Position numbers and translations under genes: made by a program. The notes below the pieces were generated by a model. The model ran no database searches and had not been told where the DNA came from. It saw only the letters and a list, made by a program, of their open reading frames with translations. Positions 17,907-45,387 of a DNA stretch of 64,000 nt are shown one piece after another; within the stretch, counting starts at the first letter, position 1; each line of letters opens with the position of its first letter. Origin of the DNA: Alphaproteobacteria bacterium (GTDB lineage: Bacteria > Pseudomonadota > Alphaproteobacteria > RF32 > CAG-239); contig JAZQZH010000021.1 in the NCBI GenBank assembly GCA_045633945.1, forward strand, positions 30,808 to 94,807, read 5' to 3'.

Positions 17907-17931
17907 AGCCAGCAAAAGCTGGCTTTTTTTA
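17907..17931. terminator. Bidirectional intrinsic terminator between ettA (+) and the 17929..18873 gene (-)
   Basis: AGCCAGC AAAA GCTGGCT stem-loop with AAAAAAA upstream and TTTTTTT downstream. Confidence 0.75.
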
Positions 17932-18873
17932 TGCATTAAATTTAGAAATTAGATTACCTTTTTCTCTAGGTATTTTAAAAAACCATCCATCAAAAAGAAT
18001 ATTATTTTCATCTAACCATTTTCTTCCTTCATTAGACATTAACTTATTTTTATCAAGTTTAATATGAAGCCAGTAATCCCCGACATCATTTGTATAGATT
18101 GATAGTTTGTATATAATACCGTTGAACAAAAAGATTTCATAAAATTTCACTTTTTTAAATTCATTTAATTTAAAGTTAGCTGAATGCTTTACATCAATAG
18201 CAGATAAAAACCAAATATATTCTACAAAATTGGAAACTAAAGGTACATTATTATCTGTTATAGATACAAAAACATCATCTTTAAATTTTCGAGAAATATG
18301 GAAGTTATCTGTTTTAATTTCTTTTATTTCATTTTCTCTTATTTTTAATAAAGGCATTTGAAGCCAGTCAATAACATTAGAATTAAGATTATAGTTCTCG
18401 CTAATCTGATATAAAAAACCATCGTTATTTAATAATGCATAATGATGCTTATTTTTTTTACCTTTCAATGCAATTGTCGCATTATCAATAATTTCTCCGT
18501 TTTCATTTATTGACTGTATTATAATGCTATTTTTCATATCAAAAGGTAAATTGTTATTTTTTAATTTATCTGTTCTATAAATAATGGTGTCTCTAATTAA
18601 GTGAATGAGAGTATTTATTTTGGCAAAAGAAACAAGATAATCATCAGCTTCAGCGGCTCTCCACAATTGCTCATGCTTTTTTAGTGTTATATTTTTATTA
18701 TTAGGAAAATTTATAACAATAGTAGAAATATAAGGGTGTTCTCTGGTTGTTTCAAAAAAGTAATTTCCTTTTGATAATGCGTGTATTCTACTATTATTCA
18801 GATAGATACCATAAATAAATAGTGGTATCAAAATAAGTAAAATAAGAATTCCAATTTTAAGATGCTTTAGCAT
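17929..18873 (-). CDS. Hypothetical membrane-anchored protein, last gene of the Gld-like ABC operon
   Basis: Single N-terminal TM (LKIGILILLILIPLFIYGIYL). Overlaps the upstream permease gene by 17 nt. This is the position where a DUF4340-like accessory protein often follows GldG, but I could not verify that family. Confidence 0.4.
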   Translation of the reverse strand: MLKHLKIGILILLILIPLFIYGIYLNNSRIHALSKGNYFFETTREHPYISTIVINFPNNKNITLKKHEQLWRAAEADDYLVSFAKINTLIHLIRDTIIYRTDKLKNNNLPFDMKNSIIIQSINENGEIIDNATIALKGKKNKHHYALLNNDGFLYQISENYNLNSNVIDWLQMPLLKIRENEIKEIKTDNFHISRKFKDDVFVSITDNNVPLVSNFVEYIWFLSAIDVKHSANFKLNEFKKVKFYEIFLFNGIIYKLSIYTNDVGDYWLHIKLDKNKLMSNEGRKWLDENNILFDGWFFKIPREKGNLISKFNA

Positions 18874-21214
18874 TATTTATTAATCTCCCAATTTTTTTGA
18901 ACTTGAATGTTTTTAGCACTAATAAAACAATAAACATTATGCCAAGAAAGATAAAAGGAAAGACAAGGATTAAGATAATGGTTAATCCTAAAATAATGTT
19001 TTTATAGTCATTTCCGATCATAGCTTTTGTTCTATTTAATTCATCGGTTGTTTCTTCTATTTTCTGCTCAATTTTACTCATGTCTCCAATATTTTTAACT
19101 GAAGCAAATTTTTTAGTATGTAAAACACCATAAAAATCATCTCTTTTCTTTTGATTTTCATCAATAATATTTTGTAATTTTTGTAAAGTATCTTTATAGC
19201 GCTCATTTATATGATTTATAATAGCTTTTCCAATGCTTAAAAAGTTAAGATTGTAGTGATGATATCTAATCATATCTTCAGATTTACTGTTTGTTATATA
19301 ACTCATCAGTCTTTGCATAAATAAAATATTATCAGTAACTGGAATTATATCATAAAAATAATCTGATTTGCTTTCCTTTGATGTAGTTAGATAATCTTTT
19401 ATAAAATCTGTATCATTAAAAAACACAACTCTTCCACTTTTTTTCGAAAAAGGAATAATTGCTTCATAATCTTTTGCAATGGATGTATGGTTTGAAGCAA
19501 AATATCCTTCTGATATTGCAGAGATACTATTGTTTTCATAGTTGAGAATTGATTGTATTTTATAATTTTTATCTTCTAATAAATCAATTTTTCCAGGATT
19601 ATGAATAACCACAGATCTTATGTCTTTAGATGTGTGCTCAAAATTGGAAATTGCAGGAATCAAAGGAAAGTCGTTCGTATTAATATATTCATCGACAATA
19701 TATATACCAAAAGTGCTTAAAAACTTAACAATTTGTTCTCCAGAATATGACATTAAATCATTGTGTTCAGCTAAGAATAGTAAAGAACCACCATTTAGAA
19801 CATATTGTTCAATAGTAAGTAAAGATTCTGTAGAAAAATATTTAGGTTTAATTATGATAAGCGCATCAAAGCTATCATCAACAAAGTATGGAATAGTATC
19901 AAAATAAACAACATTATAAAACTCTTTGAGCATTCCTTCAAAACTAGAATATAAAGTTTTTTCTGTTGGATGAACAAATAATCCAATCTTTTTCTTTTCA
20001 TTACCAAAATTTTTTATAATTCTTACTATATCAGCCTCTAACAAATTCTGTCTCATGCTATGTAGTGATTTTATGAAATTATAGTTTCCTTCATTATCTA
20101 AGAACTCCATAGCTATATATCTCTTGTAACCTAAATTGTCTTCATCAAAAACAATACCATCATTTATAAGGCGCCTTTCTAAACTGCTAAAAGGCTCAAC
20201 AAGTGTTACATTAACACGAATAATACCATTTGATTGTTTTTCAAAGGCTCGTAAAATTTTTTCAACAAAGGTTGCATAAACAGCATAGTTAGAATTAGCA
20301 TTACTACGTGAATTTTTAGATTCGTACAAAGTTATATCAATTCTTTTATCTATAGACTTTAAAATATTATCTGTTTCTTTTGATAAAGTTAATCGCTTCT
20401 CATCTGTGATATCAAACTGTTTATCAAAACAAGTTGATACGCCAACAATAGTAAATATAAATATTAGAGAAAAAGTCAAAACTAAGTAACAGAAAATAAA
20501 TTTATCTTTATTTGATGTTGCTTTTCTTAAATGAATGCCTATAACGTTCAACCAAATAAATAAAATTGTAGCAATTATAAAATAAACAAAGTTATTCAAA
20601 GACAATACACCACTTAAAAATGCAATAAAATTATCTTCAAAGCTAAGATGATTTATTGGCAGGTTGCCAATAAGATTAAATCTAATCTGTGTTATAAAAA
20701 ATAACATAAAAATAGTGGCAATATAGCTTAATATATTATTTTTACAAAATACAGATATTGAACATCCAATAGAAGTAAATAGAGCACCGCAAAGAAGCAG
20801 ACCAATATAGCCTGATACAACAACACCAATATCAAGCATTGAAACCAAATTAGAGAAAATAAATAATAATATAGAAGACAATATTAGTAATACAAAAAAA
20901 CAATATGAAGCAAAAAATTTAGCTAACACTATTGTTAAATAACTAATAGGCTGAGTAAGCAGTATTTCAATAGTTCCAGTTTTTATTTCCTCAGCCCATG
21001 ATCGCATGGTTATTGCTGGAATTATAAATAATAAAATAATTGGTTGCATAACAAAAAATGAGTTCATTATATCCGATTCTCTTAAAAAATAATCGCCTAG
21101 ATATATAGTCGTAAAAAGAGATAATATATAATAAGCACCCAAAATAACATACGCATTTAGGTTGGTGAAATTAGCACGAAAATCTTTATTAAATTGAGTT
21201 AAAAATATCTTCAT
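18857..21214 (-). CDS. ABC-2 family permease fused to a GldG-like periplasmic auxiliary domain
   Basis: The N-terminal ~250 aa have 6 TMs (ABC-2/GldF-like). A ~480-aa GldG-like domain follows. The C-terminus is a coiled coil plus TM (IILGLTIILILVFPFIFLGIMFIVLL). It is translationally coupled to the ABC ATPase gene by a 4-nt overlap. Confidence 0.55.
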   Translation of the reverse strand: MKIFLTQFNKDFRANFTNLNAYVILGAYYILSLFTTIYLGDYFLRESDIMNSFFVMQPIILLFIIPAITMRSWAEEIKTGTIEILLTQPISYLTIVLAKFFASYCFFVLLILSSILLFIFSNLVSMLDIGVVVSGYIGLLLCGALFTSIGCSISVFCKNNILSYIATIFMLFFITQIRFNLIGNLPINHLSFEDNFIAFLSGVLSLNNFVYFIIATILFIWLNVIGIHLRKATSNKDKFIFCYLVLTFSLIFIFTIVGVSTCFDKQFDITDEKRLTLSKETDNILKSIDKRIDITLYESKNSRSNANSNYAVYATFVEKILRAFEKQSNGIIRVNVTLVEPFSSLERRLINDGIVFDEDNLGYKRYIAMEFLDNEGNYNFIKSLHSMRQNLLEADIVRIIKNFGNEKKKIGLFVHPTEKTLYSSFEGMLKEFYNVVYFDTIPYFVDDSFDALIIIKPKYFSTESLLTIEQYVLNGGSLLFLAEHNDLMSYSGEQIVKFLSTFGIYIVDEYINTNDFPLIPAISNFEHTSKDIRSVVIHNPGKIDLLEDKNYKIQSILNYENNSISAISEGYFASNHTSIAKDYEAIIPFSKKSGRVVFFNDTDFIKDYLTTSKESKSDYFYDIIPVTDNILFMQRLMSYITNSKSEDMIRYHHYNLNFLSIGKAIINHINERYKDTLQKLQNIIDENQKKRDDFYGVLHTKKFASVKNIGDMSKIEQKIEETTDELNRTKAMIGNDYKNIILGLTIILILVFPFIFLGIMFIVLLVLKTFKFKKIGRLINNAKAS

Positions 21215-21933
21215 TTTTTCCCCTTTTCATTTGTGCTTAAAATGCGAAATGCATCGCTCAAATTATCAGTTCCTGATACTTTTTTAAATTCTTTAATTGT
21301 AGTATCCATGATTATTTTACCATGGGACATCATAACCACTTTATCAGCAATATCTGCATCTTCAAGCACATGTGTCGAAACCAAAACACAATGTTCTTTG
21401 GCATAATTTTGCATGAATTTTCTTATGTCATATTTTTGGTTGGGATCTAAACCATCGGTGGGTTCATCTAAAATTAGAAACATTGGTTTGTGTAGTATAG
21501 CAGAAGCTATTTCAACACGTTTTTTATATCCTTTAGATAAGTTTTCGATTCTTTCTGTTAAAACATCAATGATATTCATTTGTTTAGCTGCATCAATAAT
21601 TGCTTCAGCTATGTTTTTTATATTCCAAACCTTAGCAATCCATTCTAAAAAATCAAAAACAGTCATGTCAGCATAAAGTACAGATAGTTCTGGTACGTAT
21701 CCTATATGTGATAAGGCTTTAATTCTATTTTTTTCAATATCATCATCAAATATAGTAACATTTCCATGTGATGGAGCTAAATATCCCGTCATAACTCTCA
21801 TTAAAGTAGATTTTCCTGCGCCATTTTCTCCAATTAGAGCAATGATTTCTCCAATATTAAAGGATAAATTAATGTCAGATAATGCTATTTTTTTTCCAAA
21901 ATTCTTAGATATATTGCTGATTTTTATCATCAT
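21211..21933 (-). CDS. ABC transporter ATP-binding protein (GldA-like)
   Basis: Walker A GENGAGKST, signature LSKGYKKRVEIASAIL, Walker B LILDEPT. Confidence 0.85.
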   Translation of the reverse strand: MMIKISNISKNFGKKIALSDINLSFNIGEIIALIGENGAGKSTLMRVMTGYLAPSHGNVTIFDDDIEKNRIKALSHIGYVPELSVLYADMTVFDFLEWIAKVWNIKNIAEAIIDAAKQMNIIDVLTERIENLSKGYKKRVEIASAILHKPMFLILDEPTDGLDPNQKYDIRKFMQNYAKEHCVLVSTHVLEDADIADKVVMMSHGKIIMDTTIKEFKKVSGTDNLSDAFRILSTNEKGKK

Positions 21934-22080: not shown

Positions 22081-22617
22081 TTGGAGGAAAAATATTCCAA
22101 AGAAGAGATGAAGTCAATTCGAATTGGTTTAATGTCTCTATTAGTAATTTTAGTTGTTGTATTTATTACAATTTCACATAACACATCTATAAAAAATGAT
22201 GGGTTAGGTGAAACATATAATATTTATGCTGATTTTGGACGAACCGATGGTCTAAATTTGGGGGACGCGGTTCGTATGTCTGGAGTAACAATTGGTAGAG
22301 TGGTAGCTAATAAATTAGATGAAAATTATACAACAAGATTAACTCTAGAAATATCATCTAATATTAAAATTCCAGATGATAGTAGCGCATCAATAGTTAG
22401 TTTCGGTTTAATTGGCGGGAAATATGTTGAGATAGATGTTGGTGGTTCTGAAGAATATATGGCCAAAGAAAGTACCATTGGATACACACAAGATGCTATG
22501 GTTTTAGAAGAATTGTTAGAGCGCATAATATCTTTGGGAAAGATGAAAAAAGATGCAATAAAAGATGAAAACATTGAAGTAATAGAAGAAGTAGCAGAAG
22601 GAGAAGGTAATGAATAA
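22081..22617 (+). CDS. mlaD: MCE-domain protein (MlaD-like), copy 1
   Basis: N-terminal TM plus MCE domain (YNIYADFGRTDGLNLGDAVRMSGVTIGRVVANKLD...IVSFGLIGGKYVEIDVG). Ends with an acidic tail. Confidence 0.7.
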   Translation: MEEKYSKEEMKSIRIGLMSLLVILVVVFITISHNTSIKNDGLGETYNIYADFGRTDGLNLGDAVRMSGVTIGRVVANKLDENYTTRLTLEISSNIKIPDDSSASIVSFGLIGGKYVEIDVGGSEEYMAKESTIGYTQDAMVLEELLERIISLGKMKKDAIKDENIEVIEEVAEGEGNE

Positions 22618-23065
22618 AAAACCAGTTGAGACAATTATGGGCATGGTAGTACTCGTTGTGGCTGTACTGTTTATGATGTTTGCATATAGAGTATCCGATT
22701 TGCATGTAGTCAAAGGATATGATATAAATGCTAAATTTTTAAAAGTTGGAGGCCTAAACACAGGAGCAGATGTTCGTATCAATGGCGTAAAAGTTGGTAC
22801 AGTTATTGCTCAACAAATAAATAAAGAAGATTATATGGTTGATGTAAAAATGAGTATACTTCCTGAAATAGTGTTACCTAAAGACAGTGTATTGACTGTT
22901 GCAGGAGATGGTTTAATGGGGGATAAGTTTATAAAAATAGAGCCAGGAAAATCATCCGAAAAAGTTATGCCAGGAGAGGTTGTTAAAAATACTAAAGATG
23001 CAAAATCTCTAGAAGATATGGTCGGTGAAATCATTTTTATGGTGACAGGAAATGAAGATAAATAA
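22610..23065 (+). CDS. MCE-domain protein (MlaD-like), copy 2
   Basis: TM plus MCE domain (YDINAKFLKVGGLNTGADVRINGVKVGTVIAQQIN...). Overlaps copy 1 by 8 nt. Confidence 0.7.
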   Translation: MNKKPVETIMGMVVLVVAVLFMMFAYRVSDLHVVKGYDINAKFLKVGGLNTGADVRINGVKVGTVIAQQINKEDYMVDVKMSILPEIVLPKDSVLTVAGDGLMGDKFIKIEPGKSSEKVMPGEVVKNTKDAKSLEDMVGEIIFMVTGNEDK

Positions 23066-23813
23066 AAGTATTATATTGAGCTCAGTACTCGGCGTGTGTA
23101 TTTCTCAGGTAGCAATGTCTGCTGAAATTAATACCAATGCTGCTCTTATGCAAGCAATGGACAAACTAACAGGACGTGTAAATAAAATTACAATTCCTGT
23201 TAATTCTAAAATTGCATTCGGTGATTTTTCTTTGGTTTTACGCGCTTGTAAAAAACATCCTCCAGAAGAAACTCCGGAAAACTTTGCATTTGTTGATGTT
23301 ACGGATAAAAGTTTTGGAACAGAAGAATATAATATATTTAGAGGTTGGATGCTTTCATCTGCTCCTGGTATAAATTCTATTGAACACCCGATATATGATG
23401 TGTGGTTGCTTGAATGTATTGATAGTGAAAATAAGTCTGCAGAAATTTTAACTAAAGAAGAGCTCGATAGAAGAGATAGTCTTCCTACTAAAGATTTTAT
23501 GCAAGGACAAAATATTGCTCAAAATTTAACATCTAAAGATAATGAGATAAAAAGTAAAGAAGTTAAAAAAGCAATACATATTAAAGAATTTATGAATGAA
23601 GATAGAGATATCGAAAAAGAAATTTTTCAAAAAGGCGTTATAGAGGTTGATAATGACGTAATGCGAGATGACGATAGCCCCGAAAATTTGCTTAATTTTA
23701 CTAAGCAAGGTAATAAAGATGTAAAAGAAAATACCGATGCAGATTCTCACTTAATGAGTGATGATATCACAAAAGCTATTGATGAAGAAATAAAACAGCT
23801 ACAAGATTTCTAA
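23052..23813 (+). CDS. Hypothetical secreted protein downstream of the MlaD pair
   Basis: Signal peptide (ILSSVLGVCISQVAMSA). Overlaps the mlaD paralog by 14 nt. Has an acidic C-terminal region. Confidence 0.45.
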   Translation: MKINKSIILSSVLGVCISQVAMSAEINTNAALMQAMDKLTGRVNKITIPVNSKIAFGDFSLVLRACKKHPPEETPENFAFVDVTDKSFGTEEYNIFRGWMLSSAPGINSIEHPIYDVWLLECIDSENKSAEILTKEELDRRDSLPTKDFMQGQNIAQNLTSKDNEIKSKEVKKAIHIKEFMNEDRDIEKEIFQKGVIEVDNDVMRDDDSPENLLNFTKQGNKDVKENTDADSHLMSDDITKAIDEEIKQLQDF

Positions 23814-25363
23814 GATATAGTAATATATATATAAGAAGACATAGCCGCATAAATTATAGAAACAGCCAATATTATATATTGTGCTGTTTTATTTTTGGGT
23901 ATTAAGCTACCAATAATAAAACTTTCAGCAAGCATTATTAAAGTAAATAATCTATAATCTGATGAGCAGATATATGGTAATTCCATTGTATATTTTATTA
24001 TATATCCCCATGTGATTATCCATATAGATATAAATAAAATTGCGTAAGCATTGTTGTAAGTGCTTTTATTTGTAGTTAATATAATAAATCCTAATAAAGA
24101 GACCAATTTAATCACTATATTTATCAAATAAATGATTGTCGCAGCTGCCTCTATATTTTTACTAAATATTCTTAAGTCCCATTCTCCAAAAAGCTCTGTT
24201 TTTATAATGGCCAAAATCATATTCGCATCATTTACATAAGGAACATTCATAAAAGGAGAGGATAGCATTGAGAAGTCTGTTAATCTATCAAATAAAGAAA
24301 GATTATAAAAATTTTGCCCACCTGGAGAGGTGCTAGGTATATTATAAAATTGCATGTCAAATAAAATATGATTGCGTACAATCCATAATAATGACAATGG
24401 AACAGCAATAATTACAAACAAAGAAATTGCTCTTATTGTTTTTTCTTTGTGATTGCTTTTCAATAATTTAAATAAGAAAAATAACGATATGCAAGGAGCA
24501 TATAGTAACATAGATAGTTTTGATAATACTCCAAAACCAAATCCAATAGCTGAAAGTAATATGTGTTTTATCGAGTCTTTTTTATACCACATTAGTATAT
24601 AATAAATAACAAAAACACTCCAAAATAAAACAGCTACATCATTTGATATATATCCTGAAAATAAAAATAAAGTAGGGTTAAAAGATATTAAAATTAGCAA
24701 GGCTAAATATGTCTTTTTTGAAAATCTAAATAAACACAATATGCGAGCTATAAATATAGTTGTTGCTGTTACATAAAATAAAGATAAATACTGTAACCCT
24801 TCATAAGCAACAGAATAAGCATCCCACAATGTATTGCCAATAGTATATACTAGTTTTTGTAATATGAAATTTAAAGGTTGATGGAAAGTATAGTACATAT
24901 ACCAAGGATTAAAATATTTCCAGTTTAGGCCATTTTCTGATATTTTTGATATATATGTAATAATACCTGTTAAATCATGTTGAAGAAAATCAACTTTTGT
25001 ATTTTGAATATAATATAAATGAAAAATGAAAGATAAAGAAATGATTATTGATGAAATATGATATAAAGAGTTTTTATTTTTTATGGCATACCAAGAAATA
25101 AGCAGTGTTTCAATAAGTAATAAAAAAATATCTTTTTCATAGAGGAAAAAATAAAACACCAGAGATAATAAAGTTACCCAAATAACAATAATACGATCTA
25201 TAAATTCTTTTTGTATAAATAAAAATATTGTTGATACCAATATGAAGTTAGAACATTGCGCATTAATATAATGTCCACCAAAAAACATGCCTGCTGATAT
25301 AAAAAACAACAGACATGTTAATGTAAGAAAGCAAAAAGGATTATTTCTAATAAAGTTTATCAC
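23810..25363 (-). CDS. Polytopic membrane protein, putative GT-C fold glycosyltransferase (PMT/ArnT-like)
   Basis: 517 aa with about 12 predicted TMs. An aromatic-rich first loop (LQHDLTGIITYISKISENGLNWKYFNPWYMYYTFHQP) matches GT-C architecture. Lies 12 nt downstream of the TolC-like gene on the same strand. Confidence 0.4.
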   Translation of the reverse strand: MINFIRNNPFCFLTLTCLLFFISAGMFFGGHYINAQCSNFILVSTIFLFIQKEFIDRIIVIWVTLLSLVFYFFLYEKDIFLLLIETLLISWYAIKNKNSLYHISSIIISLSFIFHLYYIQNTKVDFLQHDLTGIITYISKISENGLNWKYFNPWYMYYTFHQPLNFILQKLVYTIGNTLWDAYSVAYEGLQYLSLFYVTATTIFIARILCLFRFSKKTYLALLILISFNPTLFLFSGYISNDVAVLFWSVFVIYYILMWYKKDSIKHILLSAIGFGFGVLSKLSMLLYAPCISLFFLFKLLKSNHKEKTIRAISLFVIIAVPLSLLWIVRNHILFDMQFYNIPSTSPGGQNFYNLSLFDRLTDFSMLSSPFMNVPYVNDANMILAIIKTELFGEWDLRIFSKNIEAAATIIYLINIVIKLVSLLGFIILTTNKSTYNNAYAILFISIWIITWGYIIKYTMELPYICSSDYRLFTLIMLAESFIIGSLIPKNKTAQYIILAVSIIYAAMSSYIYITIS

Positions 25364-25375
25364 AATTATTCTCTA

Positions 25376-27244
25376 TTATAGGTCTCCAGAAGCGCAAGGG
25401 CTACCAACTTGACATTTGTGATACACCTTAGCGCGTCTATATCCATTTAAGCCCTTATATTCCATTGTATGAACATACACATTATTTACGGTAATTGTAA
25501 AACTCAAAACAGCAGAGTTTCCAGTCTTGTCTATTGCGTAAACTTTAATTCTGTATGATCCAACATCGTCTAAAGAAGGGGTTCCTGTAAAGGTGCGAGT
25601 TTCATCACTATATGTTAACCAGCTAGGTAGACCCGCATCATCTAAAGAACCTGCAACCGTTTTATATTCACCATTCCAATTTACTTGTTCGAAAACCTCA
25701 TCTGGTAATCTTATACTAATTTCTGATCCTGCGCCAACAACAGTATCAGGAACAAGAACTCTAGAAGAAATATCAAGAGGAGGTTTCTTGTTCGAAAGAG
25801 GAGTATTGAGGGATTGAGATGCACTAAAAATTCCCTCATTCCATTCATCCAACTTCTTTCTAATACTGATTGCAATAGCAGAAGGTGTTTCATAAAGTAC
25901 ATCAGCATCTACTACATCCATGCCGATACTTGCATATAGGCGGCTGATAGCTTCTTGTAATTCAATATAAGATAAAAATGCATTTGCTTCATCAACAATG
26001 GCTCTTGCCGATTCTAAGTGACTTATAGCCTTGTTAGCTCCTTCTTTGTTCGTGATATCTTCAGCAATACCCTCTGATGTTGTAGCAACCCCCATGTTTA
26101 GGTAATAGTCCTCAATAGCAGATTGATATAGAGCCCATGAAAGATATACTTGGTTTAGAACAATGTTTGTCAATCTCTGGCGCGCTAAAGAGTTATATGT
26201 TTCATTATTTAAAAGTCTAATATCTTCAAATAATGTCATTGATAAATCTCTAGATTCTTTAGACCATTTTCTATTGTAGTAGTTAGGGTCTTGATTATAA
26301 TCGCTATTATCAATTGTATCCATATCCTTGATAACTAATTTTAGTTCTTCTTCAGAAGTAATTGCATCAAATACTCTTAATTCTGGGCGATTCGTTAAGG
26401 CTAGCCACTCAAGTTGTTGTAATTTTGCTCTCATAGAAGGAACGGGGAAGTTACCATATTCTGAACCAGCTAACTTTATTTCAGTTGATGGGTAGAAGCC
26501 AAGTAGACCAGCAAATTGAGCTTGAGCTGTTTCGAATTTTCTGCGTAAATCTGCAAGTTGTTTGATGCTTTCTAAATATTTACGTTTCTTTACAAGTAAG
26601 TTTGTTGAGGGTTTCTTGCCATTCTTGATCAATTCATTAGAGCGAGCACTTAATTCATCTACAACTCTAACAAGATATTCATTCATATCATCAATAACAG
26701 GTATCATTCTTTGAGCGCTAAGTGCTTTCCAATAAAGAGAACGAGCTTCTAGCATAATATTATTGATAACTTTTCTACTTTGTTCACCTGTTAAAATATC
26801 CTGATTGGGATTCTCGCTTTGGTAATACATAGAAGAAACATCAAGTAAATTCCATGAAACTTTTAAGTCTGCAGGAACAGCATCGCTTTCAGATGTTGTG
26901 GCATACCCTAAGTTTTCAGCAATAGTAGAAATATTTGCTGGGGATATATTGTTTTTAACTAGATTCTCTTTATAAGAAGCAAGTCTTCTAGAGTAGTTGT
27001 ATTTGATAGCTAGAGCCATTGCCATATACATATCAATAGGCTTCGTAATACTAGACGGTGTGCCTATATACATATTTTGCATATCGACATCTGCTCTAAC
27101 AGCTCTATCCCAATCCGAATAGTATGCTGACATAACAGGAGCATCTATAGATGTATTATTGTTTGTGTAAGTAGAGCATGCTGATAAAAAACTAACAGCT
27201 ACTCCGATAAAATATATACATTTTTTCATCAAAGTTTCCCTCAA
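25376..27244 (-). CDS. NodT/TolC-family outer membrane factor lipoprotein with an extra C-terminal He_PIG (putative Ig) domain
   Basis: Lipobox FLSAC. OEP-type repeats (LEARSLYWKALSAQRMI..., LADLRRKFETAQAQFAGLLGFYP) over ~470 aa. Then LPSWLTYSDETRTFTGTPSLDDVGSYRIKVYAIDKTGNSAVLSFTITV, the PF05345-like consensus (LPxGL..d..TG.isGTP...G.y...v.a.D..G). A Cys-containing tail follows. Confidence 0.6.
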   Translation of the reverse strand: MRETLMKKCIYFIGVAVSFLSACSTYTNNNTSIDAPVMSAYYSDWDRAVRADVDMQNMYIGTPSSITKPIDMYMAMALAIKYNYSRRLASYKENLVKNNISPANISTIAENLGYATTSESDAVPADLKVSWNLLDVSSMYYQSENPNQDILTGEQSRKVINNIMLEARSLYWKALSAQRMIPVIDDMNEYLVRVVDELSARSNELIKNGKKPSTNLLVKKRKYLESIKQLADLRRKFETAQAQFAGLLGFYPSTEIKLAGSEYGNFPVPSMRAKLQQLEWLALTNRPELRVFDAITSEEELKLVIKDMDTIDNSDYNQDPNYYNRKWSKESRDLSMTLFEDIRLLNNETYNSLARQRLTNIVLNQVYLSWALYQSAIEDYYLNMGVATTSEGIAEDITNKEGANKAISHLESARAIVDEANAFLSYIELQEAISRLYASIGMDVVDADVLYETPSAIAISIRKKLDEWNEGIFSASQSLNTPLSNKKPPLDISSRVLVPDTVVGAGSEISIRLPDEVFEQVNWNGEYKTVAGSLDDAGLPSWLTYSDETRTFTGTPSLDDVGSYRIKVYAIDKTGNSAVLSFTITVNNVYVHTMEYKGLNGYRRAKVYHKCQVGSPCASGDL

Positions 27245-27351
27245 ACATTGTTGTTTAACTAAATATCTACACTAAATATTTTTTAATTGGTAGTATTTTA
27301 TTTGATTTTATACAACTTTCATGTAGAATGATATAAAAGTAGAAAATATTT

Positions 27352-28101
27352 TTGGTGATGACGGCTATGTTTGATTTATTATATACATTATTTAAATATA
27401 AAGAAAAAGATCTGAAAGATGAGCTAGGGTATTATCCTGAAAAGGTAAGTGTGTCAGCTTTTCCTGAGAGAAGATATTTGTGGACATCTAGATTCTTAGT
27501 TGTGTTTTCTTGTATTAGCATGTGTGTTACCATGATTTTAGGATGTGTATTGTGTTTGATGATACCGCAAAAAAAATCAGAAGTTATGCCACTACAGATT
27601 GATTATAAAAAGCATGAGGTTACACGTATGCAGTACGCTGAATATAATGCTTTTGCAAGTAATCTTGTTACAGATAGTGTTATGGCTGATTATATCATAA
27701 ACAGATACACTATTGGTGAAGAATTTGAAGAGTTGGCTAATCGTTATAGTGAAAATGAATTTTTCTATTTGGCTTCAAGTGAAGAGGTGTGGGGGGAGTT
27801 TGAGAGAACAGAGAAGCCATATTTTGAGATGCTACAAAAGACTGGTGTGCGAAGAAAAGTGATAATTGAACAGAGTTATCCTGTCTCATTTAACTTTTGG
27901 CAAGTTCGTTTTCAGACAGTAGATACATATCCTAATAGTGATGAAAAATTAGTTAGTAGCTGGTTGGCATCTATTAGAATGACATTTAGTTTTACAAAAT
28001 ATGACAATAAAAAACAGGGACTAAAAAATCCATACGGTACAAGTGTTGTTGTATATAATTTATCATATTTAGGTCGTAAAACAGTAAAAAAAGAGGAATA
28101 A
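27352..28101 (+). CDS. VirB8-like bitopic protein (NTF2-like periplasmic domain); alternative: Tim44-like domain protein
   Basis: Cytoplasmic N-terminus, a single TM (FLVVFSCISMCVTMILGCVLCLMI), then a ~180-aa domain ending ...LKNPYGTSVVVYNLSY, which resembles the VirB8 NPxG(F)xV..Y C-terminal signature. Confidence 0.4.
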   Translation: MVMTAMFDLLYTLFKYKEKDLKDELGYYPEKVSVSAFPERRYLWTSRFLVVFSCISMCVTMILGCVLCLMIPQKKSEVMPLQIDYKKHEVTRMQYAEYNAFASNLVTDSVMADYIINRYTIGEEFEELANRYSENEFFYLASSEEVWGEFERTEKPYFEMLQKTGVRRKVIIEQSYPVSFNFWQVRFQTVDTYPNSDEKLVSSWLASIRMTFSFTKYDNKKQGLKNPYGTSVVVYNLSYLGRKTVKKEE

Positions 28102-35488: not shown

Positions 35489-36151
35489 TTATAATCTGTT
35501 TGAGATTCTTTTTAGTGCATCTTCATTGGCTAGTACTTTGTCGTAGAACTTTTCTAAGAACCAATCAATATTTTCACCTTCTTCAATAATCATTTGATAA
35601 AAGCGTTTTCTATACTCAATAACCATACTTACATTTGATATAGATACATCTACAGCTTGAATGCGATTTTGTTTGCCTCTAATTAGTTTGAATTCAACAG
35701 GAATTTTTTCGACAGGAACCTCACCGGCGAATTCTCCCAACATAACAGAACAGGTAACGGTTGTAAATTTTGGATATTCTACTACATCGTCAATACTAAA
35801 AGATATGTTGGATGAAGTAAACTTTATATTAAATTGTTTATATAAACTCAATATGTATCTTTGAAATAAATTATTATATCTAGTTTTCTGAGAGTTATTC
35901 ATTTTTCTTGCATATTTTCCAATTACAAACTTGGAGACATACTCAATATTTATGTCTTCTAAAATCATTTGATCGAGTTTTGCGTATTTTTCTACAGTGT
36001 TCTCCATCCCTAATGTCTGTAGTAACTCCTGTCCTTTATCGTTAGCCCAAACTCTAGCTTCTTCAGCATTAATAGAGACCTCTGAAGCTTTAACCATGCC
36101 TCCCCAAAAAATAAATGTTATATATAATAAAAAATGCAAGAATTTAATCAT
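35489..36151 (-). CDS. mlaC: Phospholipid-binding periplasmic protein MlaC (Ttg2D/toluene-tolerance family)
   Basis: Signal peptide plus Ttg2D-like fold sequence (...YVSKFVIGKYARKMNNSQKTRYNNLFQRYILSLY...). Confidence 0.7.
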   Translation of the reverse strand: MIKFLHFLLYITFIFWGGMVKASEVSINAEEARVWANDKGQELLQTLGMENTVEKYAKLDQMILEDINIEYVSKFVIGKYARKMNNSQKTRYNNLFQRYILSLYKQFNIKFTSSNISFSIDDVVEYPKFTTVTCSVMLGEFAGEVPVEKIPVEFKLIRGKQNRIQAVDVSISNVSMVIEYRKRFYQMIIEEGENIDWFLEKFYDKVLANEDALKRISNRL

Positions 36152-36216: not shown

Positions 36217-37671
36217 TTATTTTAATGTTGCCAAATATTCAAACTCTGTTTGTTTGTATAATGTGTTAATAATGTCAGGGGCGTATACTTGAGAGTATTT
36301 TTGTTCACCATACATTCTAAAGGCTCTTAAATCAAAGTGATTCTTTGTATAAATAAATTTAGGACGATTATTTAATATAATATTATTTATATCAACAATC
36401 TTTTTTAGGCCAAATTCTTGTTCCATTACAGGTATCAGCATATCAAGGCCAAACCAATAATAACTAGCATCTAATCTGTATATGTTAAAATTTTTATCAT
36501 ATCCATTCATTACAATATCATCTTTATCAGAATTTTTATGAACATATTGTGATAATTTATAGTTATTATAGCTATTATGAATTTCAGAAGTTTGTATTAT
36601 TTTGTTAAAAAGAAATCCTTGATATAAAAATAGGATTATCGCAATCAGTACATTTGTGCCCCAATATTTGCCTAGATACTTCGTGATGAATAAAGATAAA
36701 ATTAAAGCATTTAAAAATACTAAAGTTGTATAATAATTAGGGTGTGGCGAAAAATAAAAAGCTCGCATTACAAATTCTGTGCAATAAAGAATAGATATAA
36801 TTTTAAAATATAGATTTTCTTTTTTGAATAAATACAAGGCTATAATAAATGTTATACCATAAATACTTGTAATTAAATTGCTATACCAAAAAGAGCCTCT
36901 ATCAAAATAATATACAAGAGCTTGATTAAAACGATAATTTAGAGCAAAAAACTCAATTCCTGCGCCTTTTAGGATGAAAAACATAATGCTAAACGAGATT
37001 AATAAAACACATGGCACAGATGCAAGTATAATATTTTTAAAAGTAATTTTTTTAATAAATAATAAGCCAAACAGAATTGTTATAATGTTTGCTAAAAGAA
37101 ATGCAATTTTTTGTAAAAATAAAAAAGATATTCCAAAGCAAATAAAACTTATAACCAAATTTTTTAATTGTTTGTTATTTAAATAGCAAAACCAATAATA
37201 TATGCCCATAATAAAAAATAAATTCATGAAATTATCTGGGCGAAATTGGTAAAAGTTATATAGCGAAATAATGTTGCATAAAGATAAAGCAACAACTATC
37301 CATCCGCATTTTTTATTTGAAAAAAACTGCGATATTTTATAGATGTATAAGAGTGTTAGGCTCGATGCCCCCAAACTAATTAAGCGCATCACGTAAAATA
37401 CTATTGCTTCATCATAAAAAGCTCTAACAATTGGTGCTGATAAAAACCAAAGTAAAGGGTGATGATGTTCAAAAAAATCTCTATATGGAATCTTGCCTTG
37501 ACTCACCAGCCACGAAGCGTGCAAATGCTCAAACTCATCAACAACCTGAAAGCCTGAAAAAATAAATCCATATCCAATTATAAATAAGGACACTATAATA
37601 AAAAGCTTTATTGCATGTATAAGCGACGCATCATCAAAATCATTCAGTTGTTTTTTTATTAGCCTTAACAT
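36217..37671 (-). CDS. GT-C fold membrane glycosyltransferase, PMT_2/ArnT-like (GT39/GT83 type)
   Basis: 484 aa with about 12 TMs. The first periplasmic loop is VVDEFEHLHASWLVSQGKIPYRDFFEHHHP, a DE..H motif like the PMT/ArnT catalytic loop. A 4-nt gap to the upstream FAD-oxidoreductase gene suggests an operon. Confidence 0.5.
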   Translation of the reverse strand: MLRLIKKQLNDFDDASLIHAIKLFIIVSLFIIGYGFIFSGFQVVDEFEHLHASWLVSQGKIPYRDFFEHHHPLLWFLSAPIVRAFYDEAIVFYVMRLISLGASSLTLLYIYKISQFFSNKKCGWIVVALSLCNIISLYNFYQFRPDNFMNLFFIMGIYYWFCYLNNKQLKNLVISFICFGISFLFLQKIAFLLANIITILFGLLFIKKITFKNIILASVPCVLLISFSIMFFILKGAGIEFFALNYRFNQALVYYFDRGSFWYSNLITSIYGITFIIALYLFKKENLYFKIISILYCTEFVMRAFYFSPHPNYYTTLVFLNALILSLFITKYLGKYWGTNVLIAIILFLYQGFLFNKIIQTSEIHNSYNNYKLSQYVHKNSDKDDIVMNGYDKNFNIYRLDASYYWFGLDMLIPVMEQEFGLKKIVDINNIILNNRPKFIYTKNHFDLRAFRMYGEQKYSQVYAPDIINTLYKQTEFEYLATLK

Positions 37672-41885: not shown

Positions 41886-44800
41886 TTATCGTTGGTTTTG
41901 ATTTGGATTAAAAGGAGCCTGTGTTCCCTTTCTATCAATAACAATGCTTCTAGTCTCTACATTGGCGTCTATATCATTAGGGCTAACATTCTCAGAAATA
42001 ACTGTACCATCATTCAAATTATTTGATTTTATAATATCAACAGTAAACTCTCTTTCCTCTGTAATTTCATATTCATTACCATCGACAATGTCAAAACCAA
42101 TTTGAACAGGCTTCTCAGAAACAACTGGTAAAGGACGAAGATATAGGCGATCAAAACTATCTGTGCTAGGAACAGTTACTCCAGATGTGGTTCTTTCAAT
42201 GCTATATGTTCCTGCTTCTCCGCAGTCTCCGGCTTGGAAGTATCTTACAACTACATTTTTCGTTCCTGTAACACCATCAATTGTACCATTCTCATTTACT
42301 CTATCTATAACTTCTTTTACATGAGGAGCCATTTCTGGAGAAATATCTTCGCTACAACCTTTTAAGTAGTTTATTGTTGCGGTAATTTCTTTAGAAAATT
42401 CACCGTGTTGATCATTTGACCATGCAACCATTTGCTTCACAGAGAACATTGATTGTTCAACACTCAATCCTTCAAAAATACCTCCTTTAGCTCTCATTTC
42501 ATCAGTAATCATTGATGAGAAGAAGTCATATGCATTATCGCCGTAACGGTCTTTGAAGAATGTTTGCATTGCATCAAATTGTCTTTGAGTAATACCCGAA
42601 TTGTTATATCCGCCACGTTCTTCTACGTTTCCTGCTGCAGGTGTTCCTATTTCAACATCTTTAGAGTCAGGAACTACTTCTGCATTATCCCAATCAAGCG
42701 CAACATCGCTTGCATAAGATGTAACATGTGTTTCAGTATATGTGGCTTCTTCTAAAGTGTTAGACACGTTATTTAACTGAGTACTAGAATATACATTATC
42801 TTCTATATTGGAGCTATTATTAATAAAATTATTTGATGCAACATCTGATTGAGTTACTGCATTGTCTAAGTTTTCAGTCATAGATGTATTAACTACAGAA
42901 CCACTATTATCATAAATAGAAGCAGAGCTATCATGAGCCTCAACATTGCCGCTATGGGATAAATTTTCTGCATTGGTATTTATTACAATTTCTCTATTTT
43001 CAGTATTTAGAGTTATGTCATCGCTACCCCAAGAGCCAACTAATTTTCCATCATCAAGATTATTTGATTGATAGATATCTACATTATATTGTTTTACATC
43101 TTCAATAGTAATTGTTTGTCCTGCGGTAGTATCAAAACCTACTTGTACCTCAGAATAAGGAGTGGGGACAACATCTTCAGGTTCTGAAACTATTTTGGCT
43201 ACAGGTTCGAATACTGTTTTGTTTTCTACAGTTACTGTAGATAATGTATTTTCTCCTCCGCAATTGATTTCGCGAGAAGTAACAATAGTATTCATTTTTC
43301 CTTCAACACCTAAAATGCTACCATCATCCATTACACTATCTAATACTAAGCCGTCTTGATAGGTTAGAGTAGATAATGTTTTACATTCAAAGAAACTGTC
43401 AAACTTTTTAATATCATCATGATGTTGCCATAAATTCCAAGAAGACATTCTCTCATATTTAAAGAGTACTTCATCTCTTGTCATTCCTTCGAAGGCACCG
43501 CCTGATTGTAGCATATCATCAGTGATTCTAGAATAATATTCTTGATATTTTTCAGGTCCACCCCAAAAAGTTTGTAGTCGATTCCATTGATTTCTTGTTA
43601 TGCCAGATTCTTTTGACCAGTCACTAGGAGCTTGAACTGTTTTTGGAACAACATCTTCAGTCACTGTTTCCACAGTAGTTTCATTATTTTCTGTTAATGA
43701 TGTTGTTTCATGGGCTTCAACAGGTTCAGGAGTGCTAGTTGCAGGCATATTAGCTTGAGTATTAGTTTCTGTATCAGTATCAAGGGCTGCATAAGCAATA
43801 AAAGCAGAAGCTGCGCCAAAACCTACAACAGCAAGAGCTTTGTCCCAGAAATCTTTGTTTTTATTTTTAAGAGTAGCAATAGTATTTGTTGCTCCATGAA
43901 CAGAGGAAACAGCTAGGCTAGCAAGTCTTTGTGCTCCACGTGCTGCAATAGCACCTGTAGCACCAAAAGTTCCGCTTACAACAGCTCCTGCAGCACCTAA
44001 TCCTATAAGTCCTGCTGCACTCCCCCATCCAGCTTCTTTAAAGTATTCTTTTCTTGATTCTTTATTGCTGAATATAGAATTAGATGCTTTTTTAAGTCTT
44101 TCCATAAAGGTTGTTTTTTTGTCTTTAGGATTATTTTTTGATAAACGAGCATCGCGTCTAGCTTTTGTGATAATTGGCCATACCCAAGATGATGCAACTT
44201 TGTACGCACCATATGCTACAACTGCAGTTCCTAGCCATGGAGCGCCAATGGCGGTTGCGCCGATTAACCCACTAACAGCTGCAATATCTGTAATTGTTTT
44301 TGGAGCTCTATCGCGCATGTTGTTGGCAAATTCATATCGTTGCCCCCAAATTTGTTTGGCTTTCTGAGAAAAAGATTCCTTTGCTCTAGAGATAAAATTG
44401 CTTGCTTTATTTAGAAAAGATTTTGCATTCTCAGATTTTGCAGCTGCTGATAATACTGAGAGTTTGTGTGCGTATTTGCCCGCATTATATTCAGTTTCAG
44501 CACATGATGCTATAACAATATCAGCATGAACTTTAACTTTTTGATTAAAATCTGCAGCTTTATCTTGAAGTTCCATGTTGCCTAAAGCAAGTTGTTGATT
44601 TTGGAAAAACTCTTCATTATCTTCAGTTAGAGCTTTTTCAGCATTAGGAACATTATCTGCAATTTGAGCAGCGGTCCGTAGATGCATTAAAGAGCCTAAG
44701 AATGATGTTTTTATTTCTTTTTTTAGATATTCTATTTTTTTATCATCAGTCAGTTCGGAAAATTCAGAGCTTTTAGATTGCTCGCACATAACATCCAGTT

Positions 44801-45194: not shown

Positions 45195-45387
45195 CTTATT
45201 TTTACTCCTAAAATCGCTATTCTGCTGCACTATACCCTATTTAATGAATAAATTCAATATTTTTTTTGTCAATTTTAAATATTTTTTAAAAAATTGTCAA
45301 ATTTTTGTGTTTTTTACGATGCTGAAAAAAATGTTGCTAAATATAATCAATAATATTATAAGACAAAAAAACAACAAAGAGGAACTT

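What the first reader, a model, noticed from the sequence alone, without database searches (positions are those of the whole stretch)
23810..27244. TolC/NodT-type outer-membrane lipoprotein with an appended He_PIG Ig-like domain, co-transcribed with a GT-C membrane glycosyltransferase
The 622-aa lipoprotein has a lipobox Cys and ~470 aa of classic outer-membrane-factor repeats. It then continues into a ~75-aa segment that fits the 'putative Ig' (He_PIG) consensus almost residue-for-residue (LPSWLTYSDETRTFTGTPSLDDVGSYRIKVYAIDKTGNSAVLSFTITV), followed by a Cys-containing tail. Canonical OMFs end in the periplasmic equatorial domain, so the Ig module would hang in the periplasm. Twelve nucleotides downstream on the same strand is a 12-TM GT-C-like protein. 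PMT/ArnT-type GT-C enzymes glycosylate proteins or lipids on the periplasmic face, so this pair could be a dedicated efflux duct plus glycosylation module (O-glycosylated Ig domain or modified envelope lipid). No cognate membrane-fusion or inner-membrane pump gene is adjacent.
Basis: partly seen in the sequence, partly recalled or inferred. Interest (0 to 1): 0.75.

Follow-up and report, generated by a model that had tools for sequence, protein, structure and literature searches.

The report
TolC-like lipoprotein with Ig domain, VirB8-like partner
An outer-membrane channel-type lipoprotein with an extra Ig-like domain is real and conserved in uncultured gut and rumen Alphaproteobacteria, but its constant gene partner is a VirB8-like inner-membrane protein, not the downstream glycosyltransferase.

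Summary

The proposed duct-plus-glycosylation pair is not supported by comparison. The GT-C follows the lipoprotein only in the close clade (37 of 38 loci) and in 0 of 69 loci of the sister clade that keeps the Ig domain. L028 lacks it.

The two genes share a 63-nt intergenic block that is 94% identical where coding DNA is 72%.

More distant OMF-Ig relatives sit with HlyD-type adaptors, an M50::HlyD fusion and giant He_PIG/cadherin proteins. I read the window pair as a TolC-type duct coupled to a VirB8-like scaffold. Substrate and mechanism are inferred.

The parts
25376..27229 (-). Gene for a 617-aa NodT-type TolC-family outer-membrane lipoprotein with a C-terminal He_PIG Ig domain. The mechanical ORF starts at TTG 27244; the likely start is ATG 27229.
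   Evidence: ORF, ATG preceded by GAGGGA. (more than 569 full-length homologues of 613-633 aa). (fold matches). (OEP x2 plus He_PIG in distant full-length homologues).
27176..27229 (-). Signal peptide and lipobox (MKKCIYFIGVAVSFLSAC). Cys18 is the lipidated residue and Ser is at +2.
   Evidence: sequence. (C18 invariant in 34, 10 and 94 aligned homologues). Lipidation itself is inferred from the motif.
25832..27124 (-). TolC-like alpha-helical barrel region (residues about 36-466). Long helical hairpins lie at 143-202/209-242 and 342-396/401-435. The expected beta-hairpin regions lie at about 96-135 and 293-338.
25415..25765 (-). He_PIG / dystroglycan-type cadherin-like Ig domain (residues about 489-605), reached through a low-confidence linker of about 22 residues.
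25379..25414 (-). C-terminal tail with the invariant cysteine pair C606/C612 (probable small disulfide loop).
   Evidence: both Cys invariant across groups I and II. The disulfide is inferred.
23810..25363 (-). Gene for a 517-aa divergent PMT/ArnT-like GT-C membrane glycosyltransferase. It starts with GTG 12 nt after the lipoprotein stop, and its 3' end overlaps the convergent DUF2155 gene by 4 nt.
   Evidence: (PMT_2 24.8 bits against cut-off 26.1). (PMT_2 in 22 of 22 orthologues, PMT in 13 of 22). (about 13-14 hydrophobic segments; long loops at 119-192 and 330-405). (invariant Q128-H129-D130). (clade-restricted adjacency).
27367..28101 (+). Divergently transcribed gene for a 244-aa VirB8-family bitopic inner-membrane protein. 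It has a conserved cytoplasmic N-terminus, one TM segment (about residues 39-69 of the 244-aa protein) and a periplasmic NTF2-like domain. It is the invariant neighbour of the lipoprotein gene.
   Evidence: PF04335 45.8 bits against cut-off 23.2. (profile hits Brucella VirB8 at 2.4e-9, plus TrwG and TraE). (single TM). (adjacent in 114 of 115 assessable group I loci by HMM; the exception, L065, is positive by tblastn). (reciprocal look-up). (N-terminus is the best conserved part).
27264..27326 (.). Highly conserved 63-nt block in the shared intergenic region. I read it as overlapping divergent promoters plus an operator.
   Evidence: 93.7% mean pairwise identity in 34 distinct clade-A loci, against 72% for OMF coding DNA and 47% for the rest of the spacer. 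(a core of about 35 nt is kept in clade B). (unique in the window). (no Rfam match). (candidate -35/-10 pairs on both strands, not above chance on their own).

Best explanation
SHOWN. The 617-aa product is a divergent NodT-type TolC-family outer-membrane lipoprotein. Its C-terminus continues, after a flexible linker, into a dystroglycan-type (He_PIG) Ig domain closed by a two-Cys tail. It belongs to a family found here almost only in metagenome-assembled genomes labelled Alphaproteobacteria from gut and rumen.

In the more distant 'group II' members, the same OMF-Ig gene lies in operons with a small HlyD-type adaptor, a 450-aa HlyD-like protein and an M50-peptidase::HlyD fusion. In L092 it lies directly after a protein of more than 1236 aa with He_PIG and cadherin repeats. 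Ig-less cousins in cultured bacteria lie between an M50::HlyD fusion and a 2489-aa repeat protein; L090, from an assembly named Pseudomonas sp. UL073, is the one context read.

In the window's lineage ('group I') none of those partners is nearby. Instead the gene is always paired head-to-head with a VirB8-family bitopic inner-membrane protein, across a highly conserved 63-nt intergenic block.

INFERRED. The ancestral job of this OMF subfamily is to act as the outer-membrane duct of a type-I-like exporter for giant adhesin-type proteins. In group I the duct is co-regulated with the VirB8-like protein and works with it. The periplasmic NTF2-like domain of that protein, an oligomerising scaffold in type IV systems, docks on the periplasmic part of the OMF. 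The three Ig domains hanging from the equatorial region are the most likely docking site. This would link the duct to the inner membrane, and the strongly conserved cytoplasmic N-terminus of the VirB8-like protein would contact an unidentified cytoplasmic or inner-membrane component.

The downstream GT-C is a genuine PMT/ArnT-like enzyme that is probably co-transcribed in this clade. It is a clade-specific insertion next to the Mla/DUF2155 envelope-lipid genes. It most likely modifies an envelope glycolipid or another substrate independently of the duct.
For: Identity of the lipoprotein:
- Lipobox.
- OEP x2 plus He_PIG in full-length homologues.
- He_PIG above cut-off.

Pairing with the VirB8-like gene:
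- PF04335 is above cut-off, and the profile hits solved VirB8, TrwG and TraE structures.
- The gene is the divergent neighbour in 40 of 40 clade-A and 74 of 75 clade-B distinct loci; the one miss, L065, is positive by tblastn.
- The pairing holds although the outer flanks differ: nrdD, recG and clpP in different loci.
- The reciprocal look-up from distant VirB8-like proteins finds the He_PIG OMF again.
- The intergenic block is 94% identical against 72% in coding DNA, and its core is retained at 45-49% protein identity.

Ancestral context:
- L088, L092, L135 and L149 carry HlyD-like and M50::HlyD genes.
- L092 has an upstream He_PIG plus Cadherin protein.
- L090 has M50::HlyD, then a 2489-aa DUF4347/Big_12 protein, then the OMF.

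Independence of the GT-C.

The Gly-x-x-S/T-x-L-L turns of both helical hairpins are retained (my reading of the sequence against the model), so the periplasmic tip still looks competent for partner docking.
Against: - No physical interaction was tested, and no complex could be modelled with these tools.
- VirB8 proteins are known only as parts of type IV systems, and no TolC-VirB8 contact is documented. Literature searches found nothing.
- The rest of the genome could not be searched. HlyD, M50 or pump partners, other OMFs, or a full T4SS may be encoded elsewhere.
- The second beta-hairpin of group I proteins has lost most of its hydrophobic alternation, and AlphaFold does not model strands there. 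Even channel formation is therefore uncertain.
- No candidate substrate was identified in the window.
Confidence: 0.45

Rival explanations
1. General-purpose TolC. The protein is the house-keeping outer-membrane factor of these small genomes and serves efflux or type I pumps encoded elsewhere. The Ig domain is an accessory, for example a peptidoglycan or periplasmic contact. The VirB8-like gene merely shares a regulatory region.
For: No adaptor or pump is adjacent in any of about 125 group I loci, as is typical for E. coli tolC. The surrounding genes are house-keeping: clpP, clpX, holA, leuS, Mla. NCBI names some members 'TolC family protein'. The helical tip motifs are retained (sequence read).
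Against: This does not explain the strict, deep conservation of the divergent VirB8-like pairing, or an intergenic block more conserved than the genes themselves. The nearest relatives outside the lineage are dedicated components of HlyD/M50 and giant-protein operons, not general TolCs. The atypical second beta-hairpin also fits poorly.
Confidence: 0.25
2. Envelope tether rather than channel. Group I proteins have lost a functional beta-barrel. They act as lipid-anchored periplasmic alpha-barrel and Ig struts that, with the inner-membrane VirB8-like protein, bridge or space the two membranes.
For: In hairpin 2 the lipid-facing positions have mean hydropathy 2.1/-2.3/-3.3/-1.0, against 4.1/3.7/2.1/1.4 in group II. 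AlphaFold with a 94-sequence alignment gives no strands in either hairpin region. The protein has a lipid anchor and an inner-membrane partner.
Against: Hairpin 1 keeps a TolC-like pattern and length (LP..AGY ... DLKVSWNLLD). The membrane-proximal half of hairpin 2 is still amphipathic. Low-confidence monomer models of a trimeric barrel are weak evidence. The hairpin regions are conserved within the clade (64-74% identity).
Confidence: 0.12
3. The lipoprotein and the GT-C form a dedicated module in which the GT-C O-glycosylates the periplasmic Ig domain, or modifies a lipid that the duct exports.
For: The gap is 12 nt, and a GTG start 10-30 nt after the OMF stop is kept in 25 of the 28 loci listed. 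The GT-C belongs to the PMT/ArnT superfamily, and one orthologue weakly hits TMEM260-like. From my own knowledge, not tested here, eukaryotic PMT-type enzymes O-mannosylate dystroglycan, cadherin and IPT Ig-like domains. In L037 the Ig domain and the GT-C are missing together.
Against: The GT-C is absent from 69 of 69 clade-B loci and from all group II loci that keep the Ig domain. L028 keeps the OMF-Ig without the GT-C. The adjacency exists only where the entire region is collinear. The GT-C evolves much faster than the lipoprotein (38-71% against 66-90% identity). L037 is a single deletion event.
Confidence: 0.08
4. Orphan or remnant T4SS gene. The VirB8-like protein works in a type IV secretion system encoded elsewhere, or is a decaying remnant of one, and its position next to the OMF gene has no functional meaning.
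For: It is a bona fide VirB8 homologue, and NCBI and JGI name it a 'type IV secretion system protein'.
Against: No other T4SS gene was seen in the ORFs annotated in the window or within about 8 kb in more than 120 loci. The gene is intact and under constraint in every locus. Its partner and shared intergenic block are conserved across clades that differ by 55-65% in sequence. All 564 detected relatives lie in this one lineage.
Confidence: 0.05

Closest known systems
TolC / NodT-family outer-membrane factors (Pfam OEP PF02321), e.g. E. coli TolC, OprM, CusC, MtrE
   Different: The window protein itself is below the Pfam cut-off (17 bits). The second beta-hairpin is polar. A 150-residue C-terminal extension carries an Ig domain and a Cys-pair tail. 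No adaptor or pump is adjacent, and the constant partner is a VirB8-like protein.
OMF-He_PIG 'group II' operons and Ig-less cousins: OMF, HlyD-like adaptors, M50-peptidase::HlyD fusion and a giant repeat protein (uncharacterised as far as my searches show)
   Same: Full-length homologues of 27-38% identity with the same lipoprotein-OMF-Ig-CxxxxxC architecture.
   Different: Those loci carry HlyD-type and M50::HlyD genes and sometimes a giant He_PIG/cadherin or DUF4347 protein, with no VirB8-like gene (0 of 11). Group I has the opposite pattern.
VirB8 / TrbF / TraE / TrwG of type IV secretion systems (PF04335)
   Same: The partner protein has the VirB8 topology, with a short cytoplasmic N-terminus carrying an ERR.W juxtamembrane motif, one TM and a periplasmic NTF2-like domain. 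It matches solved VirB8 domains by profile.
   Different: There are no VirB4, B6, B9, B10 or B11 neighbours. It is paired with a TolC-family gene, restricted to one lineage, and its cytoplasmic N-terminus is the most conserved part.
LapE-type T1SS ducts for giant adhesins (LapA/LapBCE) - functional analogy, from my own knowledge
   Same: A TolC-family duct dedicated to a giant repeat adhesin, as suggested by the L090 and L092 contexts.
   Different: No ABC exporter or LapG/LapD-type genes were seen. The inner-membrane components are M50::HlyD fusions (group II) or a VirB8-like protein (group I). No substrate was identified for the window locus.
PMT_2 / ArnT-type GT-C glycosyltransferases (PF13231, PF02366)
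   Same: Many TM segments, long conserved periplasmic loops, an invariant His-Asp in the first long loop, and PMT_2 hits in all orthologues.
   Different: Below the Pfam cut-off in the window protein. No NCBIfam family reaches its cut-off. No solved relative is detectable by sequence. It is not close to the second PMT_2 gene in the window. Donor and acceptor are unknown.

Membership tests
TolC/OMF (PF02321 OEP) | Two tandem OEP repeats detectable by sequence | tested here: inconclusive
   The window protein scores 17.2 bits (cut-off 22), on repeat 1 only. 16 of 34 close relatives hit OEP, best 2.8e-7. Full-length homologues P0177, P0178, P0211 and P0238 hit both repeats at 65-96 bits. Membership therefore rests on transitive homology.
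TolC/OMF (PF02321 OEP) | Long antiparallel helical hairpins forming the periplasmic alpha-barrel protomer | tested here: met
TolC/OMF (PF02321 OEP) | Four amphipathic beta-strands per protomer (12-stranded trimeric barrel) | tested here: inconclusive
   Hairpin 1 has a TolC-like pattern. Hairpin 2 has lost hydrophobic alternation in its distal half relative to group II and Ig-less relatives. AlphaFold gives low-confidence helices, not strands. The trimer could not be modelled.
TolC/OMF (NodT subgroup) | N-terminal lipoprotein signal with lipobox Cys | tested here: met
   ...FLSAC with Cys18 invariant. Lipidation itself is not testable here.
TolC/OMF tripartite systems | Cognate periplasmic adaptor (MFP) and inner-membrane transporter | tested here: not met
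   None was found in the ORFs annotated in the window, or within about 8 kb in any group I locus. The whole genome is not searchable here. tolC is also unlinked in E. coli, so this does not exclude membership.
He_PIG / dystroglycan-type cadherin-like Ig domain (PF05345) | Profile match above the curated cut-off, and a beta-sandwich fold | tested here: met
GT-C glycosyltransferases (PMT_2 PF13231 / PMT PF02366) | Profile match to a GT-C family | tested here: inconclusive
   The window protein scores 24.8 bits against cut-off 26.1. 22 of 22 orthologues hit PMT_2 (best 7.2e-9) and 13 of 22 hit PMT (best 2.1e-8). NCBIfam gives only sub-threshold hits to GT-C-like families. There is no PDB sequence hit.
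GT-C glycosyltransferases | Polytopic membrane protein (8-14 TM) with an acidic catalytic residue in the first long extracytoplasmic loop | tested here: inconclusive
   About 13-14 hydrophobic segments, with long loops at 119-192 and 330-405. Q128-H129-D130 in the first long loop is invariant. Loop orientation and catalysis are inferred.
GT-C glycosyltransferases | Uses a polyprenyl-phosphate-linked sugar donor on the periplasmic face | not testable with these tools
   Biochemical property.
VirB8 (PF04335) | Profile match, bitopic topology and a periplasmic NTF2-like domain | tested here: met
   45.8 bits against cut-off 23.2. The profile hits Brucella VirB8 4aky/2bhm at 2.4e-9, plus TrwG and TraE. 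There is a single TM at about residues 39-69 of the 244-aa protein.
Type IV secretion system (as a system) | Co-occurring VirB4 ATPase and VirB6/B9/B10-type components | tested here: not met
   None was seen among the ORFs annotated in the window or among the called genes around the pair in the look-ups. The genome-wide question is open.

The most novel reading that the evidence does not exclude
A hybrid trans-envelope apparatus not described before. A whole lineage of gut and rumen Alphaproteobacteria would have recruited a T4SS-derived VirB8 scaffold to a TolC-family duct that carries its own periplasmic Ig docking domain, replacing the HlyD/M50-type adaptors used by the ancestral giant-adhesin exporter. 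In effect this would be a new way of coupling an outer-membrane factor to the inner membrane.
Probability: 0.2. Interest if true: 0.8.

Novelty: new variant of a known kind. Interest (0 to 1): 0.55.

Why it matters
TolC-family ducts are thought to be opened and coupled to the inner membrane only through HlyD/AcrA-type adaptors, and VirB8 proteins are known only inside type IV machines.

Here a TolC-like/VirB8-like gene pair is strictly conserved and shares a promoter/operator block better conserved than the genes themselves. The duct also carries a built-in periplasmic Ig domain. If the two proteins really work together, this points to an undescribed coupling mode.

The result also flags a wider, apparently unstudied export system: OMF, HlyD-like proteins, an M50::HlyD fusion and a giant He_PIG/cadherin protein. 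That system also occurs in cultured genera, where it could be tested.

The host lineage consists of uncultured, small-genome members of human and ruminant gut communities, about whose envelope biology almost nothing is known.

Tried and rejected
- PDB sequence searches with the lipoprotein or its family profile hit only the Ig domain, never TolC. OMF identity needed fold comparison and transitive homology.
- The first AlphaFold run, with a shallow 34-sequence alignment, gave pLDDT 61. It was repeated with 94 sequences, giving pLDDT 77.
- The Foldseek afdb50 library was unavailable.
- The representative search was swamped by giant He_PIG repeat proteins, and only 7 full-length relatives could be extracted.
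- The metagenome scan with P0149 alone found nothing. It was repeated with an alignment.
- The GT-C profile had no PDB sequence hit. hhalign to the window's other PMT_2 protein gave only 4% probability. NCBIfam gave only sub-threshold hits.
- There were no PADLOC hits for any of the three proteins.
- Rfam found nothing in the intergenic region.
- The promoter and terminator scan is not above shuffled expectation in this AT-rich DNA (31 found against 31.5 expected).
- The group II partner proteins (L088 373, 219, 449 and 698 aa) have no homologue in the window or in any group I locus.
- Literature searches for DUF4347, for VirB8-like with TolC, for peptidase M50 with HlyD and TolC, for He_PIG with TolC, and for orphan VirB8 found nothing relevant.
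- I considered a T4SS remnant and rejected it as the main explanation. No other T4SS gene was seen in the ORFs annotated in the window or around the pair in any locus examined, and the pair is under strong constraint.
- I believe the lineage corresponds to the GTDB 'RF32'-type order, but this rests on memory only and was not tested.

Full report
**1. What is in the sequence**

Two same-strand ORFs occupy 25376..27244 and 23810..25363 on the minus strand. The first ends in TAA, and the second starts with GTG 12 nt later.

The mechanical ORF of the first gene begins at a TTG. Five codons further, at 27229, there is an ATG preceded by GAGGGA. This start gives MKKCIYFIGVAVSFLSAC, a textbook lipoprotein signal. 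All close homologues start at that Met, and the Cys is invariant. I therefore treat the protein as 617 aa.

The window has about 31% G+C and carries house-keeping and envelope genes around the locus. These include clpP, clpX, holA, leuS, lptE, lgt, pgk, gap, an AsmA-family giant protein, two MlaD genes, DUF2155 and an MlaC-like gene.

**2. The lipoprotein is a TolC-family protein, but a divergent one**

Pfam OEP scores only 17.2 bits (cut-off 22), on one repeat. NCBIfam TolC scores 18 bits (cut-off 225). Sequence searches of the PDB hit only the C-terminal domain. 'Classic OMF repeats' is therefore too strong. Three lines of evidence still establish the family.

- **Sequence relatives.** 16 of 34 close relatives hit OEP, best 2.8e-7. 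An exhaustive HMMER search found full-length relatives of 27-37% identity with the same architecture. Of these, P0177, P0178, P0211 and P0238 hit both OEP repeats at 65-96 bits and also carry He_PIG.
- **Motifs.** The sequence shows the OMF hallmarks LP..AGY / DLKVSWNLLD (hairpin 1), LEWLALTNRPELR (start of repeat 2) and Gly-x-x-S/T-x-L-L at both helical turns.

One point is unresolved. In the window's group the second beta-hairpin (about residues 293-338) has lost most of the alternating hydrophobicity that group II and Ig-less relatives keep. AlphaFold also models both hairpin regions as low-confidence helices. Whether a normal 12-stranded barrel forms is open.

**3. The appended domain is real**

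The domain is joined to the last equatorial helix (449-464) by a low-confidence linker. It is followed by two further strands and a tail with two cysteines that are invariant across the whole family. OMF C-termini lie on the periplasmic equatorial domain, so the Ig domain should be periplasmic. This is inference from topology.

**4. The downstream gene is a GT-C, but not a conserved partner**

The window protein is just under the PMT_2 cut-off (24.8 against 26.1). However, all 22 orthologues hit PMT_2 and 13 hit PMT. The protein has about 13-14 hydrophobic segments and two long conserved loops, and Q-H-D in the first loop is invariant.

I collected 172 related loci from species-representative genomes and metagenomes and scored the neighbours with HMMs.

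| Clade (distinct OMF sequences) | GT-C follows the OMF | VirB8-like gene adjacent |
|---|---|---|
| Clade A, at least 66% identity | 37 of 38 assessable loci | 40 of 40 |
| Clade B, 45-49% identity, Ig retained | 0 of 69 | 74 of 75 |
| Group II, 27-38% identity, Ig retained | none found | 0 of 11 |

In clade A the whole region is collinear, so adjacency there carries little information. L028 keeps the OMF-Ig but has no GT-C. L037 has lost the Ig domain and the GT-C together, apparently in one deletion. The GT-C also evolves much faster than the lipoprotein (38-71% against 66-90% identity).

The duct-plus-glycosylation reading is therefore not supported, although it is not excluded for clade A. 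By family analogy an envelope glycolipid acceptor is at least as likely. ArnT-type GT-Cs that modify lipid A or LPS core are common in Alphaproteobacteria; this is my own knowledge and was not tested here. The gene sits beside Mla/DUF2155 genes. A second PMT_2 gene in the window sits beside an MlaC-like gene.

**5. The constant partner is a VirB8-like gene**

The gene at 27367..28101 on the plus strand is transcribed divergently from the lipoprotein gene.

- It matches PF04335 at 45.8 bits (cut-off 23.2).
- It has a single TM segment.
- As a profile it hits the solved periplasmic domains of Brucella VirB8 (2.4e-9), TrwG and TraE.
- It is adjacent and divergent in 40 of 40 clade-A and 74 of 75 clade-B loci. 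The one HMM miss, L065, is positive by tblastn. The outer flanks change between loci (nrdD, recG, clpP, HTH genes).
- Look-ups started from distant VirB8-like proteins land next to the He_PIG OMF again.
- All 564 detectable relatives belong to this lineage.
- No other T4SS gene was seen among the ORFs I annotated in the window, or around any pair.
- Its cytoplasmic N-terminal 42 residues are its best conserved part: 64-76% identity between clades, against 27-28% for the periplasmic domain.

**6. A shared, highly conserved control region**

The 137-nt spacer contains a 63-nt block (27264-27326). In 34 distinct clade-A loci it is 93.7% identical pairwise. The first 600 nt of the OMF gene are 72% identical, and the rest of the spacer is 47% identical.

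A core of about 35 nt survives in clade B, where the proteins are only 35-49% identical. The block is unique in the window and has no Rfam match. It contains candidate overlapping -35/-10 pairs for both directions (these are not significant on their own) and an imperfect dyad. I read it as a shared promoter/operator, which would mean the two genes are co-regulated.

**7. Where the family comes from**

In group II loci (L088, L092, L135, L149) the OMF-Ig gene is followed by three genes: a 200-220-aa HlyD-type adaptor, a 450-aa HlyD-like protein and a 700-aa M50-peptidase::HlyD fusion. In L092 it is preceded by a protein of more than 1236 aa with He_PIG (72.5 bits) and Cadherin domains.

Ig-less cousins of about 500 aa share 40-48% identity with the OMF part of P0238. 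They occur in assemblies named Pseudomonas, Pantoea, Skermanella, Terasakiella, Azotobacter and others. In L090 the order is M50::HlyD, then a 2489-aa DUF4347/PATR/Big_12 protein, then the OMF.

The subfamily thus looks like the outer-membrane duct of a type-I-like exporter of giant adhesin-type proteins. I found no paper on it. Group II loci never have the VirB8-like gene, and group I loci never have the HlyD/M50 genes nearby.

**8. Most likely mechanism and its status**

*Shown:* domain identities, lipobox, the strict gene pairing, the conserved control block, the clade-restricted GT-C and the ancestral operon contexts.

*Inferred:* the OMF-Ig trimer and the VirB8-like protein form one trans-envelope unit. 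The NTF2-like domain would dock on the periplasmic part of the duct, probably on the Ig domains, and the conserved cytoplasmic N-terminus would contact an unknown partner. The unit would export a large surface protein or another substrate. I give this about 0.45.

**9. Novelty**

Databases already hold these proteins as 'hypothetical', 'TolC family protein', 'putative Ig domain-containing protein' or 'type IV secretion system protein'. I found no description of the OMF-Ig fusion, of the VirB8-like pairing or of the M50::HlyD operons.

This is a new variant of a known kind, a TolC-family factor, with an unexpected partner. The decisive tests are a whole-genome census of the MAGs, multimer modelling or coevolution of the pair, and expression data.

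Noticed in passing
window 27264-27326 (intergenic, between 27229 and 27367): A 63-nt block is 93.7% identical across 34 distinct clade-A loci, although the flanking genes are only about 72% identical at DNA level. A core of about 35 nt persists in clade B. It contains an imperfect dyad, TTTTAyACA-N7-TGwATAAAA, and candidate overlapping divergent promoters. There is no Rfam match.
   Followed up: partly
L088 10066-14171; L092 2-9998; L149; L135; L090 1-9497: An apparently undescribed operon type: a TolC-family OMF (with or without the Ig domain), a small HlyD-type adaptor, a 450-aa HlyD-like protein and a 700-aa M50-peptidase::HlyD fusion. It is often next to a giant repeat protein (He_PIG plus Cadherin in L092; DUF4347/PATR/Big_12, 2489 aa, in an assembly named Pseudomonas). 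No literature was found.
   Followed up: partly
window 25376-27229, residues about 293-338 (nt about 26216-26353): The second beta-hairpin region of the OMF has become polar in the window's group. AlphaFold models both hairpin regions as low-confidence helices, so barrel formation is uncertain.
   Followed up: partly
window 27367-27492 (the cytoplasmic N-terminal 42 residues of the VirB8-like protein): The cytoplasmic N-terminus (FKYKEK..D.LG..PE.V.V.A.PERR.LWTSR) is far better conserved between clades (64-76%) than the periplasmic domain (27-28%). This implies an unknown cytoplasmic contact.
   Followed up: no
L037 7986-10291; L028 7986-10729: In clade-A-type synteny, one rumen MAG (L037) has an Ig-less 472-aa OMF and no GT-C, probably through a single deletion. 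Another (L028) has the full OMF-Ig but no GT-C.
   Followed up: partly
window 36217-37671 (-) and 35489-36151 (-): A second, unrelated PMT_2-type GT-C (33 bits, above cut-off) lies next to a gene whose L006 orthologue carries Pfam MlaC. Both GT-C genes in the window therefore sit beside Mla lipid-transport genes.
   Followed up: no
window 22081-23813 (+): Two tandem MlaD-domain genes (178 and 151 aa) are followed by a DUF2155 gene. They run convergent with the GT-C gene, and the ends overlap by 4 nt.
   Followed up: no
window 17929-21933 (-): An ABC ATPase, a 785-aa fusion of an ABC-2 permease with DUF7088 and a GldG-like ABC_transp_aux domain, and a 314-aa protein with no Pfam match. This set is syntenic with the locus in clade A only.
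   Followed up: no
window 54265-59676 (-) and 41886-45230 (-): An 1803-aa AsmA-family protein, and a 1114-aa ORF with no Pfam hit at E no greater than 0.01.
   Followed up: no
window 23810-25363 and orthologues (L004-L036): The GT-C gene uses a GTG start 10-30 nt after the OMF stop in 25 of the 28 loci listed (ATG or TTG in three), which suggests translational coupling. L031 has an in-frame stop in my extracted GT-C coordinates, so it may be a pseudogene or the coordinates may be wrong.
   Followed up: no
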